From Candidatus Hydrogenedens sp. (GTDB lineage: Bacteria > Hydrogenedentota > Hydrogenedentia > Hydrogenedentales > Hydrogenedentaceae): DNA of 64,000 nt. Made by a program: the position numbers and the translations under genes. Below, one piece after another: positions 14,037-22,620 of the stretch. The stretch is taken from assembly GCA_049968235.1 (NCBI GenBank), contig JBMFRC010000001.1, positions 1 to 64,000 on the forward strand, in the 5' to 3' direction. The notes under the pieces were generated by a model. It did no database searches, had not been told where the DNA came from, and saw only the letters and a program-made list of their open reading frames with translations. The first letter of the stretch is position 1, and each line of letters opens with the position of its first letter.

Positions 14037-16400
14037 ATGCTGAAAGAAAATAAAAAATCACAGACTTTGAAAAATCTCTTCTGGCGGAATTTTTTCCTTT
14101 TTTTTATTCTTATCATCGTAATCGGTGTTTCATGGTGGTTTGGTTCAATCGCGGGGAAATATTCGCTCCATGATTTGATAACGAAACCATTACCACCAGT
14201 TCCACCCAAAGAAGCAATGAAAGAAAAAGAGCAAAATAAAGAGGAGACTCCTCCTTTTTTTATATATGTGGGCGGAGAGCCTTGTAGCGAAGTCGCTCAA
14301 AAAGAGTTTATGCATGCAAAGGAAGCAGGAATTGTTAATTATATTATCGATGTTCCATTTCCATGGAGGGGTTCGGATGATTTACCGGAATTGTTTCGTA
14401 TTCTTCAATGTATTAATGATGTTGACCCTCATGGGAAGTATTGGATTTATCTGGACCTGAATCCTCCTAATTTCTGGTTTTCAGGTAAGAAATCCGCCAA
14501 TATGATAGTTAATGGAGAGATTCAACCTTATGCTTGTTTTAATGCTCCATCGTGGAAAAAAGCAATTGAAGAATCTTTTGTTTTGTTAATAAGTAGTCTT
14601 CGCTCTTCCAAAATTGGTGGACAGGTAGGTGGATATATTTTAGGATTTCTAAAGAATCGCTGGTGGATTTCGCCGGGATTGGACGAGTCGGAGTTTTCTC
14701 TAACAAATTTTAATAAGTGGATACAAAATCATTATCCCTCAGCAGAAGAGCGTATTCAATTATTCGGAGCGGATACACTTGAACCTTCACTTATTCTTGA
14801 TGGATTGCACAAAGAAACCGGGACATCCTCCAACTACTTAAATCCTGTGGAACATCGTATTTTAATAAACTACCGTCGTTTTTTCAATGAGAGTCTGGCA
14901 AATAGTATTGGTTTCTGTGCCATGACATTAAGGCAGTTACTTCAGGATACAAAAGCAAAGATTTATATTCCGTATGGGCTGAATATGGAGACAGCAGATA
15001 CAGCAACAGGGCAATTTTCATTAGATTCAATAGTAGAAAGTGATGTAGATGGCTTTATTCTTCCCATATCTTACATAAATCGGGGATTGGGTGAATCGGG
15101 AGGACCCTCAGGGACAATAGAAACTTTATCTCTTCATGGGAAAGATGTCTTACTTTTTGATGATACCCGAACCGGTATTTCCTTTGATGCTTCAACTCGA
15201 CAAATAGTACGGGTAAAAGGAGTGCGGGCAGAAAATATTTTTGCGGTTCAAAAACGAAATATGGGGTTGGCTCTTGTTCATAATGCTGGTTTGATATGGA
15301 CAGACCCGGAAGGGAAGGGGTGGCTTTTGGATGTAGAACAATGGGATTTGTTTGAAAAAATGATACAAATTTCAACTCGAATTCTAACTCAGGAGGGTAA
15401 ATTGCAAAAACTGCGACTTCAACCCCGAAAGATACATGGAGTCCCTAATGAAAATGCAATAACGGAAGACCATATACTACCCCGTTTGCAGGTAGGAAAG
15501 TTCAACACCGAGGAAGTGCAAACAGAATATCCTCCTGTAGTTCCGTCAGAAAATATTCTCTGGGAACCTCTGGCTATGATTATTGATGAGCGGGCAATGC
15601 ACCTGCTTAGCCCAAAAGGGATTGAATTCTACTCGTCAAGTATCGCTAATGTTCGTGACCAACTTTTGAAAGTGGGTTTGCCCATAGAATTTTATCTCAT
15701 GCAAGATTTACTTGATGAACGTATTCCAAAAAAACTGATTTATTTTATTTTCAATCTTTATCCACCAACGGAAAAAGAAATTCAAACTTTACATCGTATT
15801 TTTGAAACAGATAAATCCATAGTAATATGGTATTACCTGCCTACATGGGGAATAGATACCGATAATGCAGAACTTGTTCGCCAGTTAACACAAATTGACG
15901 CAAAACTATTTGACACAGATATATCTGCAGGTTCTGTTTTAGAACTGGAAGGGAGATGGATAAATAAAGGAGACGCTTTTGGTGAACCTATATCTGTTTC
16001 GCCATTATTTTATATCGAAGATGAAAATGCAGATGTAATTGCTCGATACCAATCAAACGGTAAACCCAGTATTGCAGTTAAAACCATAAATGATAAGTGG
16101 GTATCTGTTTTTTATGCAGAACCTACCGTAAATCACCTTGCTATGCGTGAAATTCTTTCTATTTTAGAGGTGCCTACTGCTATTGCAGAAGGAAGTGTTG
16201 CGACACAGGATACACTTCTGGTTGGAACAAATATGCTGGTTCTACATACCAAAGGAATTGGAGACCGTATCTTACAATTCAACCAATTTTTGAACATTGA
16301 AAATTTATTTCAACCTGAACAAAAATGGTTTGAACGGGAAACACTTCTTCTATCTTTGGGTAGTGGAGAAACCGTATTTTTATTTTTCCAACCCCAATAA
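14037..16400 (+). CDS. Hypothetical 787-aa membrane-anchored protein (N-terminal TM, large extracytoplasmic domain)
   Basis: Single N-terminal hydrophobic helix FFLFFILIIVIGVSWWF. No recognisable motif. Sits between the GT2 and the oxidoreductase. Confidence 0.4.
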   Translation: MLKENKKSQTLKNLFWRNFFLFFILIIVIGVSWWFGSIAGKYSLHDLITKPLPPVPPKEAMKEKEQNKEETPPFFIYVGGEPCSEVAQKEFMHAKEAGIVNYIIDVPFPWRGSDDLPELFRILQCINDVDPHGKYWIYLDLNPPNFWFSGKKSANMIVNGEIQPYACFNAPSWKKAIEESFVLLISSLRSSKIGGQVGGYILGFLKNRWWISPGLDESEFSLTNFNKWIQNHYPSAEERIQLFGADTLEPSLILDGLHKETGTSSNYLNPVEHRILINYRRFFNESLANSIGFCAMTLRQLLQDTKAKIYIPYGLNMETADTATGQFSLDSIVESDVDGFILPISYINRGLGESGGPSGTIETLSLHGKDVLLFDDTRTGISFDASTRQIVRVKGVRAENIFAVQKRNMGLALVHNAGLIWTDPEGKGWLLDVEQWDLFEKMIQISTRILTQEGKLQKLRLQPRKIHGVPNENAITEDHILPRLQVGKFNTEEVQTEYPPVVPSENILWEPLAMIIDERAMHLLSPKGIEFYSSSIANVRDQLLKVGLPIEFYLMQDLLDERIPKKLIYFIFNLYPPTEKEIQTLHRIFETDKSIVIWYYLPTWGIDTDNAELVRQLTQIDAKLFDTDISAGSVLELEGRWINKGDAFGEPISVSPLFYIEDENADVIARYQSNGKPSIAVKTINDKWVSVFYAEPTVNHLAMREILSILEVPTAIAEGSVATQDTLLVGTNMLVLHTKGIGDRILQFNQFLNIENLFQPEQKWFERETLLLSLGSGETVFLFFQPQ

Positions 16401-17814: not shown

Positions 17815-17858
17815 TTTTGGGGATATGGTAAAAAAAATAATCATATCCCCCAAAAATG
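17815..17858. terminator. Hairpin terminator after the oxidoreductase gene
   Basis: ttttggggatatgg-taaaaaaaataat-catatccccaaaa gives a 12-13 bp stem flanked by A/T runs. Confidence 0.6.
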
Positions 17859-17860
17859 AC

Positions 17861-17889
17861 TTGACATTAGGTTTTAAATGTGGTAATAT
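17861..17889 (+). promoter_or_regulatory. Near-consensus sigma70-type promoter (TTGACA-N17-TAATAT)
   Basis: ttgaca at 17861-17866, a 17-nt spacer, and taatat at 17884-17889. Strong SD aaggaga 7 nt before the GTG at 17957. Confidence 0.6.
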
Positions 17890-17956
17890 ATTAATAGTTA
17901 AATACGCAGGTATAATTGAATAACAACAAATATCTCTAACAACAAGGAGACAAACA

Positions 17957-18166
17957 GTGAAAAAATTAGTAGCATTAACACTCGTAGTTCTGTTAGCCCT
18001 CTGCAGTATGGTTGCATTTGCCGACGGAACGTCCTCCACACAGCAGACACAGGTGAGGCAGGTAAGAGGTCTTGCTGGTGGTGCTGGTGGCACTGGTGGT
18101 ATTGCAGGACTTAGTGGTGGTGGTTCTGCTGCAGGTGGAGCAGATATTACCGTTGCTCGTTATTAA
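17957..18166 (+). CDS. Small secreted Gly-rich peptide (signal peptide plus about 47-aa mature region)
   Basis: GTG start with strong SD. MKKLVALTLVVLLALCSMVAFA | DGTSSTQQTQVRQVRGLAGGAGGTGGIAGLSGGGSAAGGADITVARY. Confidence 0.55.
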   Translation: MKKLVALTLVVLLALCSMVAFADGTSSTQQTQVRQVRGLAGGAGGTGGIAGLSGGGSAAGGADITVARY

Positions 18167-18246
18167 TCATCGTATTACAGAATACTAAAATAATAAATTT
18201 AATCTGATAAGGGGATAGGGGGGTTTTTTATTTATCAAATAATTAT

Positions 18247-18325
18247 CGGGGTGTAGCTCAGTCCGGTTTAGAGCGCTTGGTTCGGGACCAAGAGGCCGGT
18301 GGTTCAAATCCACTCACCCCGACCA
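18247..18325 (+). tRNA. tRNA-Pro (anticodon CGG), CCA encoded
   Basis: Cloverleaf with acceptor CGGGGTG/CACCCCG, anticodon loop TTCGGGA, T-loop GGTTCAAATCC, then CCA. Confidence 0.85.
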
Positions 18326-18571
18326 TAGGTATTTAGAAAAGATAAAACATTTAAGAAAGGTTATTATATCTCCTTATATATTGTAAAAGAAAAGAATGTT
18401 TAATAGATTTAATTTTGTAATTAATTTCCTTCTCTTTTTATCTCATTTTATCTTATAAATAAAATTGTATCTGTTTCACTTTATTTTTTCTTTCTATAAT
18501 TCATGAATAAAAGATAATCAGGTATTTGTAGAGAAGTAATATACAAAATATAAAAACATAATATTTATATT

Positions 18572-18742
18572 TTAATCAGAACTATTTTTTACCTTATCCA
18601 GGATTTTTACAATCAAGTCAAATAGAGAGCCTAACATTTTAATCCCATTATTCCACACTTCTATTTGTTGTTGTTTTTCAAGTGTTGAATCTGCCTGCTG
18701 AGGGGCAATTTTTAAATGGGTTGTTGTTTGAATATGTTTCAT
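18572..18742 (-). CDS. Possible small protein (56 aa) with amphipathic C-terminal helix, downstream of the porin gene
   Basis: GGAG SD 6 nt before the ATG. MKHIQTTTHLKIAPQQADSTLEKQQQIEVWNNGIKMLGSLFDLIVKILDKVKNSSD. Confidence 0.3.
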   Translation of the reverse strand: MKHIQTTTHLKIAPQQADSTLEKQQQIEVWNNGIKMLGSLFDLIVKILDKVKNSSD

Positions 18743-21530: not shown

Positions 21531-22007
21531 TTGCTAAAAATCATTGTAATTTGGAGTTACAAAATGTATCGACAAAAGATGATATTAAAAAAGAGTAAGA
21601 AAAAACAACAAGGCATGACACTAATAGAACTAATGTTTGCTGCAGGGGTATTAGCGTTTGTGCTAAGTATGATATTTACATCTGTTATAACTGTGGGTAT
21701 GAATCGTGAAATACATACACAACGATTGCAGGCAGAAAGTGTAGTTAATGAGATATTAGACCAAATTAGTCGTTCAGATAGTTCTCAGATATTGAATTTT
21801 CTTCCTGATATACCTAATTTACCGGGGACAAATGCGGTATTACGCGTGGAAGCGATAACAGGTGATGGAACACCCATTACATTACCCAGTCCTAATGCGA
21901 ATATCCATTTACCCAATCCTCTAGAAGTGCGTGTAACATTGACGTGGCAAACAACAGACCGTGGATATACAATAACCAAGAGAGGGTCCACTTATGTATC
22001 CAATTAA
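21531..22007 (+). CDS. Prepilin-type (type IV pilin / T2SS pseudopilin-like) protein
   Basis: Class III signal KKQQG|MTLIELMFAAGVLAFVLSMIF with G-1 and E+5. Probable start at 21564 (SD ggag). Confidence 0.7.
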   Translation: MLKIIVIWSYKMYRQKMILKKSKKKQQGMTLIELMFAAGVLAFVLSMIFTSVITVGMNREIHTQRLQAESVVNEILDQISRSDSSQILNFLPDIPNLPGTNAVLRVEAITGDGTPITLPSPNANIHLPNPLEVRVTLTWQTTDRGYTITKRGSTYVSN

Positions 22008-22620
22008 ACGCAATATACTTGGTATGACATTAATTGAATTAACCATGACAGTAGGTTTGATGGCAATTGTTATGGGAGCGTTATTTACACTTTCGTTGAG
22101 CCTGACCGATACAGTTCAAAATTATAACGCAACTATGACAGCGACAGACGAGGCACGTCGAGCATTACAAATTTTAATCCCTCGTTTATCTCATGCATCC
22201 CGGCAGACTGTAAATTGGAATGAATTACCGGGAACTGTCCTTCGATTTCGTATGCCAACGGATTTGGATGGGAATGGTACATGTGTAGATGTAAGTGGAA
22301 ACCTTGAATTAGGAAATGTTGTAACTGTACAACGGGATACACAGGACGCCAATAATGATGGGATGACAGATAATCAATTGGTCATGATTCAGGGAAATAA
22401 TGTTACTGTTCTGGCAAATCACTTATTTAATCCTCCTGAAGTGGGAAACCCGGATGGCACTTTTAATGATACCAATGGAAATGGGAGGTTAGACCGTGGC
22501 TTCTTTATTACTATAGATAATAACACTATTCAGGTTCATATTGATACGGTAGGTCAATCTCGTCGTGGACATCAGTTTGTAATAAATGTAGAAGAGCGTG
22601 TGGTTCCAAGAAATCCATAA
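21994..22620 (+). CDS. Prepilin-type pseudopilin-like protein 2
   Basis: NILG|MTLIELTMTVGLMAIVMGALF has G-1 and E+5. Overlaps the upstream gene by 14 nt. Confidence 0.7.
   Translation: MYPIKRNILGMTLIELTMTVGLMAIVMGALFTLSLSLTDTVQNYNATMTATDEARRALQILIPRLSHASRQTVNWNELPGTVLRFRMPTDLDGNGTCVDVSGNLELGNVVTVQRDTQDANNDGMTDNQLVMIQGNNVTVLANHLFNPPEVGNPDGTFNDTNGNGRLDRGFFITIDNNTIQVHIDTVGQSRRGHQFVINVEERVVPRNP

What the first reader, a model, noticed from the sequence alone, without database searches (positions are those of the whole stretch)
17861..18166. Consensus-promoter, strong-SD, signal-peptide-bearing Gly-rich 69-aa peptide beside tRNA-Pro
TTGACA-N17-TAATAT promoter, aaggaga SD and GTG start drive MKKLVALTLVVLLALCSMVAFA|DGTSSTQQTQVRQVRGLAGGAGGTGGIAGLSGGGSAAGGADITVARY. 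After Sec cleavage the 47-aa product is about 40% Gly with a Gln/Thr/Arg-rich N-terminal stretch. It resembles glycine-rich secreted bacteriocin-like or surface-fibre peptides. It lies next to a tRNA gene and a 440-nt AT-rich gap that also holds a possible 56-aa amphipathic peptide (18572-18742).
Basis: seen in the sequence. Interest (0 to 1): 0.5.

Follow-up and report, generated by a model that had tools for sequence, protein, structure and literature searches.

The report
Conserved small exported glycine-rich protein gene
The 69-codon reading frame is a real gene for a small exported glycine-rich protein; its unnamed family turned up only in the uncultured bacterial phylum Hydrogenedentes, it does not look like a bacteriocin, and its function is still unknown.

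Summary
The ORF (17957-18166, +), its promoter, ribosome-binding site, signal peptide and the adjacent tRNA-Pro(CGG) are all present as described. Glycine is 30% of the mature peptide, not about 40%.

The ORF is a real gene. Against a 70%-identical orthologue, the Gly-rich and C-terminal part has 20 synonymous and 2 non-synonymous codon differences (dN/dS about 0.02). The promoter, SD, start codon and tRNA are conserved with it.

Profile searches found about 37 clusters of 62-111 aa proteins. Every cluster that carries an organism name comes from Candidatus Hydrogenedentes or Hydrogenedens genomes. All share:
- a Sec signal peptide ending A-x-A;
- a variable, mostly acidic linker;
- a strongly conserved Gly/Ala core ending in GGAD(V/I)x(V/I)AxY.

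No Pfam, NCBIfam, PDB or viral relative exists. AlphaFold2 monomer models of the mature part are disordered.

The gene stands alone in seven or eight different neighbourhoods. None holds an exporter, immunity or modification gene. The mature peptides are anionic and lack cysteine, so the bacteriocin reading is not supported.

Best guess, at low to moderate confidence: a strongly expressed periplasmic or envelope protein whose core self-packs or docks onto a conserved partner. In this genus it is probably co-transcribed with tRNA-Pro. The result is a modestly interesting orphan small-protein family.

The parts
17815..17854 (+). Stem-loop (TTTTGGGGATATG ... CATATCCCCCAAA) between the stop of the upstream GFO/IDH/MocA oxidoreductase gene and the peptide promoter. 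It is terminator-like and probably insulates the two units.
   Evidence: Inverted repeat I12, 13-nt arms, 92% complementary. The same hairpin is scored as a terminator in L004. The sub-threshold Rfam 'mir-365' hit here is spurious.
17861..17889 (+). Sigma-70-type promoter: -35 TTGACA (17861-17866), 17-nt spacer, TG-extended -10 TAATAT (17884-17889). The transcription start is inferred near 17896.
   Evidence: 10 of 12, TG. Orthologous sites are in L003 (11 of 12) and L004 (10 of 12). The block TGACTTGACATT ... TGTGGTAAnAT is conserved in alignment A1. The transcription start is inferred, not shown.
17944..17950 (+). Shine-Dalgarno sequence AAGGAGA, 6 nt upstream of the GTG start (7 nt counted from AAGGAG).
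   Evidence: Sequence. AAGGAG is conserved in L003 and L004. All family loci have AGGAG or GGAGG.
17957..18022 (+). Sec-type signal peptide, residues 1-22 (MKKLVALTLVVLLALCSMVAFA), with the predicted signal peptidase I site AFA|D.
   Evidence: It has the usual three-part signal-peptide layout. The -1 Ala is invariant and the -3 Ala is at least 90% conserved in 35 members. A-x-A is present in 34 of 35. This part evolves freely (14 non-synonymous codons of 23 against L003). Its cysteine is not conserved and there is no lipobox.
18023..18067 (+). N-terminal linker of the mature protein (DGTSSTQQTQVRQVR). It is variable across the family.
   Evidence: Alignments A2 and A4. Against L003: 5 identical, 5 synonymous and 4 non-synonymous codons.
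18068..18163 (+). Conserved core: the Gly/Ala-rich segment G38-G61 (18068-18139) plus the C-terminal motif ADITVARY (18140-18163). The stop codon is 18164-18166.
   Evidence: 20 synonymous versus 2 non-synonymous codon differences against L003, dN/dS 0.021. Invariant family columns are G44 G45 G47 G48 A50 G55 G56 G60 G61 D63 Y69. In the main clade, 9-20 of 27 core codons differ synonymously with 0-2 amino-acid changes.
18167..18246 (+). 80-nt spacer between the peptide stop codon and the tRNA. It has no stable terminator hairpin and no promoter-like site, so read-through into the tRNA is inferred.
   Evidence: The fold z-score is +0.81 in the window and +0.24 in L004, against -4.9 and -6.0 for the terminators of the two main-family loci folded. 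No promoter-like site lies in the spacer. L003 does have a hairpin here (z -2.4).
18247..18325 (+). tRNA-Pro (anticodon CGG), probably the 3' member of the same transcription unit in this genus.
   Evidence: ARAGORN and Rfam at 67.5 bits. It has the same position and orientation in L001, L003 and L004. It is absent next to the gene in L005-L014.

Best explanation
SHOWN.
- 17957-18166 is a real protein-coding gene under strong purifying selection.
- It belongs to a small, unnamed family. Every member that carries an organism name is from Candidatus Hydrogenedentes or Hydrogenedens (anaerobic-digester and wastewater metagenomes).
- Every member has the same layout: a Sec signal peptide ending A-x-A, a variable and mostly acidic Ser/Thr/Asp/Ala linker, and a roughly 30-residue Gly/Ala core ending in GG-A-D-(V/I)-x-(V/I)-A-x-Y at or next to the C-terminus.
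- It is a solitary gene with its own near-consensus, mostly TG-extended promoter and a strong SD. Outside the window's own lineage (window and L004) it also has a terminator-like hairpin: strong in the main family, weaker in L003.

INFERRED.
1. The precursor is exported by Sec and cut by signal peptidase I after Ala22. This releases a 47-aa, roughly 4.3-kDa product into the periplasm of a bacterium with two membranes.
2. The gene is strongly and constitutively expressed. In the window's lineage (window and L004) the transcript runs on into tRNA-Pro(CGG), with RNase P making the mRNA 3' end; in L003 a hairpin in the spacer may stop part of it.
3. The product acts through its conserved core as a structural or partner-binding envelope component. 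Either it packs with copies of itself in a glycine-dependent way, or it docks its flanking beta-strand-like segments and C-terminal Tyr onto a conserved envelope protein.
4. It is not a toxin, a lipoprotein or a precursor of a modified peptide.

Step 3 is the weakest. The molecular function is not established.
For: Coding and selection: dN/dS 0.02-0.06; 14 of 15 differences synonymous against L004; up to 20 of 27 core codons differ synonymously with no amino-acid change.

Family and taxonomy:
- Exhaustive HMMER search: only 4 hits among 1.84 billion representatives, one of them spurious.
- Profile search: 37 clusters.
- Genome hit in Candidatus Hydrogenedens terephthalaticus.
- Cluster members named Candidatus Hydrogenedentes bacterium ADurb.Bin101 and Bin179.

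Export: conserved A-x-A and signal-peptide layout. Genes for outer-membrane proteins point to two membranes: porin O/P next door and OEP plus an RND pump in L013.

Solitary gene: seven to eight unrelated neighbourhoods.

Expression signals:
- Conserved promoter, SD and terminators.
- GGT is used for 10 of 14 Gly codons, against 33% in the window's long ORFs.

Co-transcription: no terminator or promoter in the 80-nt spacer in the window and L004.

Constraint on the core: the last 30 residues are identical (30 of 30) among L005, L009 and L020, where the rest of the peptide is 48-85% identical and housekeeping enzymes on the same contigs are 75-95% identical. That is not expected of a mere flexible linker.
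Against: - There is no direct expression or localisation data.
- AlphaFold2 monomer models give pLDDT below 50 for the whole mature part, so no fold supports a structural role.
- Glycine period-3 power over the core is not significant (fraction of shuffles at least as high: 0.07 for the window, about 0.3 for the main clade). A polyglycine-II type of packing therefore has no statistical support.
- At deep divergence the core is only about 63% identical between the window clade and the main clade (my count from alignment A4). That is similar to an ordinary HAD hydrolase at 58%, so the constraint is strong but not unique.
- No partner has been identified.
- L003 has a hairpin between the gene and the tRNA, so co-transcription may be partial.
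- One orthologue ends ...ARYN, so a free C-terminal Tyr is not strictly required.
Confidence: 0.4

Rival explanations
1. It is an intrinsically disordered periplasmic protectant or stress protein. This would be a small hydrophilic Gly-rich protein that buffers osmotic, acid or desiccation stress, in the manner of OsmB, Asr or hydrophilins, without adopting a fixed structure.
For: - Both AlphaFold2 models predict a disordered mature part.
- It is small, hydrophilic, Gly-rich and has a signal peptide.
- It is a solitary gene.
Against: - Disordered protectants tolerate substitutions. Here the core is unchanged at the amino-acid level while synonymous sites are heavily diverged, with up to 20 of 27 codons differing.
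- There is no lipobox, unlike OsmB.
- There is no hit to Gly-zipper, Asr or KGG families above threshold.
- The promoters look constitutive (near-consensus sigma-70) rather than stress-specific. This last point is only an inference.
Confidence: 0.2
2. It is a secreted signalling peptide or pheromone. Sec export and further trimming of the variable linker would release the conserved C-terminal peptide of about 30 residues, which an unlinked receptor then senses.
For: - The layout of signal peptide, variable pro-region and conserved C-terminal peptide is typical of exported peptide signals.
- It is a solitary gene.
- There are weak sub-threshold NCBIfam hits to Phr-type pheromone precursors, but they fall on the signal peptide only.
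Against: - No receptor, kinase or processing protease gene is adjacent in any context.
- Peptide signals usually diversify between species. This core is identical across species whose enzymes are only 75-95% identical.
- Crossing the outer membrane would need a route that is not evident.
- A Gly/Ala peptide offers few side chains for specific recognition (inference).
Confidence: 0.1
3. It is a Sec-dependent bacteriocin- or microcin-like antimicrobial peptide.
For: - The product is small, exported and Gly-rich.
- Class IIb microcins are also anionic and Gly/Ser-rich (PMC10233263).
Against: The features that define class II microcins are absent:
- no double-glycine leader (it is Sec A-x-A instead);
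- no adjacent immunity gene, peptidase-containing ABC exporter (PCAT) or membrane-fusion protein (MFP) in seven to eight contexts (against the definition).

Other points against:
- Net charge has a median of -4, with no Cys and 1-7 large hydrophobic residues.
- The core is strongly conserved rather than diversifying.
- Inheritance looks vertical and single-copy, with synteny kept within clades.
- There are no viral relatives.
Confidence: 0.07
4. It is the precursor of a post-translationally modified peptide or cofactor. The conserved Gly-rich core or the C-terminal Tyr would be altered by enzymes encoded elsewhere in the genome.
For: - An invariant core next to a variable leader-like region resembles precursors of ribosomally made, post-translationally modified peptides (RiPPs).
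- The C-terminal ...Y is reminiscent of mycofactocin MftA (...GVY). This comparison rests on my own knowledge.
- McbA of microcin B17 is also a 69-aa Gly-rich precursor (my own knowledge).
Against: - No radical-SAM, YcaO, cyclodehydratase or other tailoring gene is consistently nearby. The single radical-SAM gene about 5 kb upstream in L003 is not at the corresponding place in the window.
- A cleavable Sec signal peptide would move the peptide away from cytoplasmic tailoring enzymes.
- The core lacks Cys and has at most one Ser or Thr in the main clade.
Confidence: 0.06
5. The ORF is incidental. On this view the promoter is simply the tRNA-Pro promoter and the 69 codons are an untranslated tRNA leader.
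For: - There is no terminator or second promoter between the ORF and the tRNA in the window and L004.
- The promoter match alone is at chance level.
Against: - The codon-level substitution pattern shows selection on the protein.
- The SD and start codon are conserved.
- The same gene, with the same kind of promoter, occurs without any tRNA in L005-L023.
Confidence: 0.02

Closest known systems
Braun's lipoprotein Lpp of Enterobacteria (comparison of gene anatomy only; from my own knowledge)
   Same: - It is a very small exported envelope protein, with a precursor of about 70-80 aa.
- It is a solitary single-gene unit with a strong promoter, a strong SD and its own terminator.
- It is restricted to one bacterial lineage.
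- Its sequence is highly conserved.
   Different: - There is no lipobox Cys.
- There are no coiled-coil heptads.
- There is no C-terminal Lys for attachment to peptidoglycan.
- There is no sequence similarity.
- Abundance here is inferred from expression signals, not measured.
Glycine-triplet (GGX) structural domains: mycobacterial PGRS domains and other polyglycine-II sandwiches (PMC9436101), plant class-I glycine-rich cell-wall proteins (Pfam PF07172), snow-flea antifreeze protein
   Same: - Runs of GGX triplets are present: GLA-GGA-GGT-GGI in the window and (GGA)3 in the main clade.
- Glycines are the invariant positions.
- Like plant glycine-rich proteins, it has a signal peptide followed by a Gly-rich region.
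- Sub-threshold composition-driven Pfam hits go to GRP and New_glue.
   Different: - There are only about 8 triplets per chain, whereas small PGII sandwiches need 5-6 helices of 3-4 triplets each (PMC9436101). A fold would therefore need several chains.
- Period-3 is not significant over the whole core.
- AlphaFold2 does not predict PGII.
- There is no PE domain or type VII secretion system.
- All Pfam hits are below the gathering thresholds.
Class II microcins and Sec-dependent small bacteriocins
   Same: The products are small, exported and Gly-rich. Class IIb microcins are also anionic and lack Cys.
   Different: - The leader is Sec A-x-A instead of double-glycine.
- No immunity, PCAT or MFP genes lie nearby.
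- The core is conserved rather than divergent.
- The gene is chromosomal and syntenic within clades.
OsmB and glycine-zipper small envelope proteins (Pfam Gly-zipper families; from my own knowledge)
   Same: - The precursor is about 70 aa with an N-terminal signal peptide and a Gly/Ala-rich mature part.
- The window clade's core contains some Ile and Leu between the glycines.
   Different: - There is no lipobox.
- The main-clade core has no large hydrophobic residues and so could not insert into a membrane.
- There are no Pfam or NCBIfam Gly-zipper hits.
Mixed mRNA-tRNA operons such as E. coli tyrT-tpr and thrU-tyrU-glyT-thrT-tufB (from my own knowledge)
   Same: A protein-coding gene and a tRNA share one strong promoter, and RNase P or RNase E processing would separate them.
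   Different: Here the order is mRNA first and tRNA second. Co-transcription is inferred only from the absence of a terminator or promoter in the spacer. It applies only to the Hydrogenedens clade.

Membership tests
Sec/signal-peptidase-I secretory proteins | N-terminal basic region, hydrophobic core, and small residues at -3 and -1 (A-x-A) before the cleavage site | tested here: met
   MKK, then a 16-residue hydrophobic stretch, then AFA|D. The -1 Ala is invariant and the -3 Ala is at least 90% conserved over 35 members. AlphaFold2 models only this part as a helix. No dedicated signal-peptide predictor was available.
Bacterial lipoproteins (OsmB, Lpp and similar) | Lipobox [LVI][ASTVI][GAS]C with an invariant Cys at +1 | tested here: not met
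   The window has LALC and L003 has AAVC, both with a non-canonical -1 residue. Many members have no Cys at all, for example P0003, P0010 and P0016.
Class II microcins | 15-18 aa leader ending in a double-glycine (GG or GA) cleavage motif | tested here: not met
   The leader is a 20-35 aa hydrophobic Sec signal ending A-x-A. Definition taken from PMC10233263.
Class II microcins | Adjacent immunity gene, C39-peptidase ABC exporter (PCAT) and membrane-fusion protein | tested here: not met
   None is present within 5-10 kb in seven to eight distinct contexts. The RND-TetR cluster in L013 is transcribed divergently and is not shared by other loci.
Class II microcins | Antibacterial activity of the mature peptide | not testable with these tools
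   This needs a bioassay with synthetic peptide.
Polyglycine-II sandwich proteins (PGRS-like, snow-flea antifreeze-like) | Glycine-rich triplets (GGX) in phase, forming 5-6 or more antiparallel PGII helices of 3-4 triplets each | tested here: inconclusive
   Four in-phase triplets in the window, then the phase breaks. There are only about 8 triplets in total. Period-3 power is not significant (shuffle fractions 0.07 to 0.3 and above). Definition from PMC9436101. An oligomer could not be modelled.
Polyglycine-II sandwich proteins (PGRS-like, snow-flea antifreeze-like) | Confidently predicted or solved PGII fold | tested here: not met
   AlphaFold2 monomer models have mean pLDDT 52.6 and 56.8, with the core below 50 and no secondary structure.
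RTX / beta-roll calcium-binding repeats | Tandem nonapeptides GGxGxDxUx | tested here: not met
   There is only one Asp-containing unit. The main clade's GGGGADVRV places Arg at the hydrophobic position. The window's AAGGADITV lacks G1 and G2 (read). There is also an N-terminal signal peptide, unlike type I secretion substrates.
RiPP precursors (mycofactocin MftA, microcin B17 McbA and similar) | Co-located tailoring enzymes (radical SAM, cyclodehydratase or YcaO) and a cytoplasmic leader | tested here: not met
   No such gene is conserved next to the peptide. The N-terminus is a Sec signal.
Any curated protein family (Pfam-A, NCBIfam) or solved structure | Score at or above the family's curated cut-off, or a significant PDB sequence match | tested here: not met
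   Pfam gives only sub-threshold compositional hits (New_glue, GRP, DUF7283). NCBIfam gives signal-peptide hits far below their cut-offs. The PDB search returns only scFv (G4S)3 linkers.

The most novel reading that the evidence does not exclude
The conserved GGX-rich core of about 30 residues could be a minimal glycine-packing module, of the polyglycine-II or silk type, that folds only when several chains come together. The small Sec-exported protein would then polymerise into a sheet or fibre that forms a major envelope or matrix component throughout the phylum Hydrogenedentota. That would be the first stand-alone, Sec-exported bacterial 'mini-silk', and a lineage-defining envelope protein comparable in role to Lpp in Enterobacteria.
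Probability: 0.12. Interest if true: 0.7.

Novelty: new variant of a known kind. Interest (0 to 1): 0.4.

Why it matters
Hydrogenedentes (Hydrogenedentota) is an uncultured candidate phylum that is common in anaerobic digesters, and nothing is known about its cell envelope.

A small exported protein with strong expression signals, found here only in this phylum and under strong purifying selection, is a good candidate for a major envelope or matrix component. It is also a convenient lineage marker and a metaproteomic target.

The family also shows that a glycine/alanine sequence of low complexity can be held fixed at the amino-acid level. That points to a specific structure or partner that monomer structure prediction cannot see.

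If the function turns out to be ordinary, the value is limited to annotating an orphan small-protein family and to one more example of an mRNA-tRNA transcription unit.

Tried and rejected
- Lipoprotein: rejected. The Cys is not conserved and there is no lipobox.
- RTX nonapeptide: rejected on reading the motif.
- Glycine-zipper membrane helix: rejected for the family, because the main-clade core has no large hydrophobic residues.
- Polyglycine-II periodicity: tested and not significant (the first attempt, timed out).
- Structure prediction: two AlphaFold2 runs with a 35-sequence alignment left the mature part disordered. No fold search was run, because a low-confidence model gives meaningless matches.
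- PDB profile search: returned only engineered scFv linkers.
- Pfam and NCBIfam: nothing above the cut-offs.
- Rfam: nothing except the tRNA, both around the gene and in ten related loci.
- Viral contigs: no relative.
- Literature searches for Hydrogenedentes plus glycine-rich, and for the assembly accessions: no papers. A broader search was uninformative.
- Integrated element at the tRNA: no repeat of the tRNA 3' end occurs in the window.
- The resemblance between GGGGATAGGG after the gene and the arm of the upstream hairpin (D9 and I5) is not conserved in L004 and is treated as chance.
- The 78-aa gene at the end of L013 is a C-terminal fragment of an unrelated protein, not a paralogue.
- P0002 (509 aa) from the exhaustive search is a spurious repeat-protein hit.
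Full report

Yes. The window carries, on the + strand:
- TTGACA (17861-17866), 17 nt, then TAATAT (17884-17889), with TG at 17881-17882, which makes an extended -10;
- AAGGAGA at 17944-17950, 6 nt before the start codon;
- tRNA-Pro(CGG) at 18247-18325, 80 nt after the stop codon.

Two corrections apply.
- Glycine is 14 of the 47 mature residues (30%), not about 40%. It is 13 of 24 residues in the core only.
- The promoter match by itself is at chance level in this 37%-GC DNA. There are 9 promoter-like sites in 2.5 kb against 10.3 in shuffles.

**2. Is it a gene?**

Identical copies lie on two NCBI metagenome-assembled contigs (L001, L002). A 97%-identical copy lies in Candidatus Hydrogenedens terephthalaticus (L004). 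A 70%-identical, 71-aa orthologue (P0001) lies on a 935-kb contig (L003).

The upstream genes are syntenic in L003: a GT2 glycosyltransferase, a protein of about 787 aa with no known domain, and a TAT-signal GFO/IDH/MocA oxidoreductase. tRNA-Pro(CGG) follows the gene in L001, L003 and L004.

The DNA alignment shows that the TGACTTGACATT and TGTGGTAAnAT blocks, AAGGAG and the start codon are conserved, while the surrounding intergenic DNA is not. The scan finds the orthologous promoters at 11 of 12 and 10 of 12 matches, both with TG.

Substitutions follow the reading frame:
- Window versus L004: 15 differences, 14 of them synonymous.
- Window versus L003: the signal peptide is free to vary (14 non-synonymous of 23 codons).
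- Window versus L003: the Gly-rich/C-terminal part has 20 synonymous and 2 non-synonymous codon differences, giving dN/dS 0.021.

The idea that the ORF is an untranslated tRNA leader is therefore rejected.

**3. The family**

An exhaustive HMMER search of 1.84 billion representative proteins with the two-sequence profile found only P0001, two small proteins of the same layout (P0003 and P0004) and one spurious repeat protein.

A profile of the four sequences then retrieved 37 clusters, nearly all 74-88 aa. Named members are hypothetical proteins of Candidatus Hydrogenedentes bacterium ADurb.Bin101 and Bin179. Samples are anaerobic digesters and wastewater.

All members share three parts:
- a signal peptide whose -1 Ala is invariant and whose -3 Ala is at least 90% conserved (A-x-A in 34 of 35);
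- a variable linker rich in Asp, Ser, Thr, Ala and Pro;
- a core that reads GGAGGAGGAAGGAGGGATGGGGADV(R/K/N)VAQY in the main clade and GGAGGTGGIAGLSGGGSAAGGADITVARY in the window.

The mature proteins are 47-77 aa (median 53). Their net charge runs from -7 to +1 (median -4). They have no Cys and 1-7 large hydrophobic residues.

In the main clade, 9-20 of the last 27 codons differ synonymously between loci, with 0-2 amino-acid changes. Among L005, L009 and L020 the last 30 residues are identical, while the rest of the peptide is 48-85% identical and DHDPS, EPSP synthase, FBP aldolase and GlmS on the same contigs are 75-95% identical.

Between the window clade and the main clade the core is about 63% identical (my count). 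A HAD hydrolase shared by the window and L018 is 58% identical. The constraint is therefore strong but not unlimited.

**4. Gene anatomy and context**

The gene is solitary. Its neighbours differ from one lineage to the next:
- DHDPS and EPSP synthase (divergent) with FBP aldolase and GlmS, or with a GH20-like gene;
- TetR plus an RND efflux pump;
- HslV and RhaM with a peptidase MA;
- an aminotransferase;
- a Flg_new_2 protein.

No exporter, immunity, receptor or tailoring gene recurs.

Every locus examined has the following:
- an A-tract, a TTGAC/TTTAC/CTGGAC -35 and a TATAAT-like -10 (TG-extended in most);
- a 5' UTR of 60-100 nt;
- a strong SD.

In the main family a strong intrinsic terminator follows the gene: folds two of them (z -4.9 and -6.0), and one search shows a GC-rich hairpin followed by a T-run in the same place in the others.

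In the window and L004 the 80-nt spacer before the tRNA has neither a stable hairpin (z +0.8 and +0.2) nor a promoter-like site. I infer that the tRNA is transcribed from the peptide's promoter. L003 keeps a G-U-rich hairpin there, so termination may be partial in that lineage.

The tRNA adjacency is confined to the Hydrogenedens clade, because no tRNA is present in seven other loci. A hairpin at 17815-17854 separates the unit from the upstream oxidoreductase gene. GGT is used for 10 of 14 Gly codons, against 33% in the window's long ORFs. That is compatible with translational optimisation but is weak evidence.

**5. What it is not**

- Not a lipoprotein: there is no lipobox and the Cys is not conserved.
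- Not a class II microcin. The defining double-glycine leader and the adjacent immunity, PCAT and MFP genes (PMC10233263) are absent. The product is anionic and conserved rather than diversified.
- Not an RTX repeat, on reading the motif.
- Not a RiPP precursor by context.
- Not a member of any Pfam or NCBIfam family. The only hits are sub-threshold compositional matches to plant GRP and Drosophila New_glue, plus signal-peptide matches.
- No PDB relative: the only matches are scFv (G4S)3 linkers.
- No viral relative.

**6. How it most likely works**

Shown: the gene encodes a Sec-type precursor with a conserved signal peptidase I site.

The organism has genes for outer-membrane proteins: a porin O/P next door and OEP in L013. 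With no dedicated secretion partner encoded beside the gene, the default destination of the 47-aa product is the periplasm or envelope. That is an inference.

A Gly/Ala sequence that cannot change while synonymous sites diverge heavily is unlikely to be a mere flexible spacer. It should pack tightly, either with itself or against a conserved partner, so that only glycine or alanine fits. That too is an inference. Short beta-strand-like segments flank the core (Q-V-R-Q-V-R or V-N-L-V before it, D-V-R-V-A-Q-Y after it), and they could add onto a sheet.

A polyglycine-II type of packing, as proposed for PGRS domains (PMC9436101), is attractive because of the local GGX triplets. It is not supported, however:
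- one chain has only about 8 triplets;
- period-3 is not significant;
- two AlphaFold2 monomer models leave the mature part disordered.

I therefore commit only to the following: a strongly expressed, exported structural or partner-binding envelope protein, at confidence about 0.4.

The rivals are:
- a disordered periplasmic protectant (0.2);
- a peptide signal (0.1);
- a bacteriocin (0.07);
- a RiPP precursor (0.06);
- an incidental ORF (0.02).

**7. Comparison with known systems, and novelty**

In gene anatomy it works like Lpp: tiny, solitary, with strong expression signals and restricted to one lineage. In composition it resembles GGX-type structural proteins such as plant glycine-rich proteins, PGRS domains and silk. 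It is a member of none of these, since defining features were tested and not met.

It is an unnamed orphan small-protein family found here only in Hydrogenedentes, so it is best called a new variant of the general kind 'small exported glycine-rich protein'. Interest is moderate (0.4). The gene is real and unusually constrained, but its function is unknown and it does not bear on a long-standing question.

**8. Side claims in the finding**

The 56-aa ORF (18572-18742, -) is a real, genus-restricted small gene:
- it begins 29 nt after the porin O/P stop codon and has an AAGGAG SD;
- it is kept at 56-59 aa and 70-100% identity in seven clusters, the two named ones being from Candidatus Hydrogenedens sp.;
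- it shows 14 synonymous and 7 non-synonymous differences against L004.

It belongs with the porin gene, not with the peptide.

The AT-rich gap (18326-18571, 17-23% GC in its core) is poorly conserved. Synteny with L003 breaks there. There is no att-like repeat of the tRNA 3' end in the window.

Noticed in passing
window 18572-18742 (-): The 56-aa ORF starts 29 nt downstream of the porin O/P stop codon and has its own AAGGAG SD. It is conserved at 70-100% identity and 56-59 aa in seven clusters; the two that carry a name are 'hypothetical protein [Candidatus Hydrogenedens sp.]'. Against L004 it shows 14 synonymous and 7 non-synonymous differences. It has no Pfam or NCBIfam family. It is probably a real small gene, seen so far only in Hydrogenedens, that is co-transcribed with the porin.
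   Followed up: partly
window 18326-18571; L003 10397-10706: Synteny between the window/L004 and L003 ends exactly at the 3' end of tRNA-Pro(CGG). The window continues with porin O/P and a HAD hydrolase, while L003 continues with ApbE and the Nqr operon. The spacer is 17-23% GC through its core and only about 58% alignable to L004. No repeat of the tRNA 3' end occurs in the window, so there is no sign of an integrated element.
   Followed up: partly
window 14037-16400 (+): A 787-aa protein with an N-terminal membrane anchor has no Pfam or NCBIfam hit. It is nevertheless syntenic and 47% identical in L003, between a GT2 glycosyltransferase and the TAT-signal GFO/IDH/MocA oxidoreductase. This looks like a conserved three-gene block of unknown function.
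   Followed up: no
window 17815-17854: A 13-bp-arm hairpin (TTTTGGGGATATG / CATATCCCCCAAA) follows the oxidoreductase stop codon. It is conserved in L004, where it scores as a terminator. Rfam's sub-threshold 'mir-365' hit on the minus strand here is spurious.
   Followed up: yes
window 18074-18081 and 18083-18090: Two copies of the E. coli Chi octamer GCTGGTGG lie inside the Gly-rich coding region. They are a by-product of Ala-Gly-Gly codons (GCT GGT GG), and homologues use other synonymous codons.
   Followed up: yes
L005 7880-8003, L009, L013, L018, L020, L023 (5' UTRs of family genes): The main-clade genes share a motif GACGTTGAGGCCTTAA just before the SD and CAGGT(A/T) just after the -10 hexamer. 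Several also have a lineage-specific hairpin in between. No Rfam family matches. This may be an mRNA-stability or regulatory element.
   Followed up: partly
L024 1350-1690: A GC-rich, structured-looking intergenic stretch of about 340 nt lies upstream of the P0004 family gene in an otherwise AT-rich contig. It has no Rfam match at gathering thresholds.
   Followed up: partly
window 21531-22620 (+); L013 11608-11844 (-): Genes for prepilin-type proteins with an N-terminal methylation domain lie in the window. L013 carries a fragment of an H-x9-DG (DUF1559-like) protein. This fits the pseudopilin-rich genomes of Hydrogenedentes and of the Planctomycetes-Verrucomicrobia group, and hints at a type II secretion or type IV pilus route that could in principle carry periplasmic proteins outward.
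   Followed up: no
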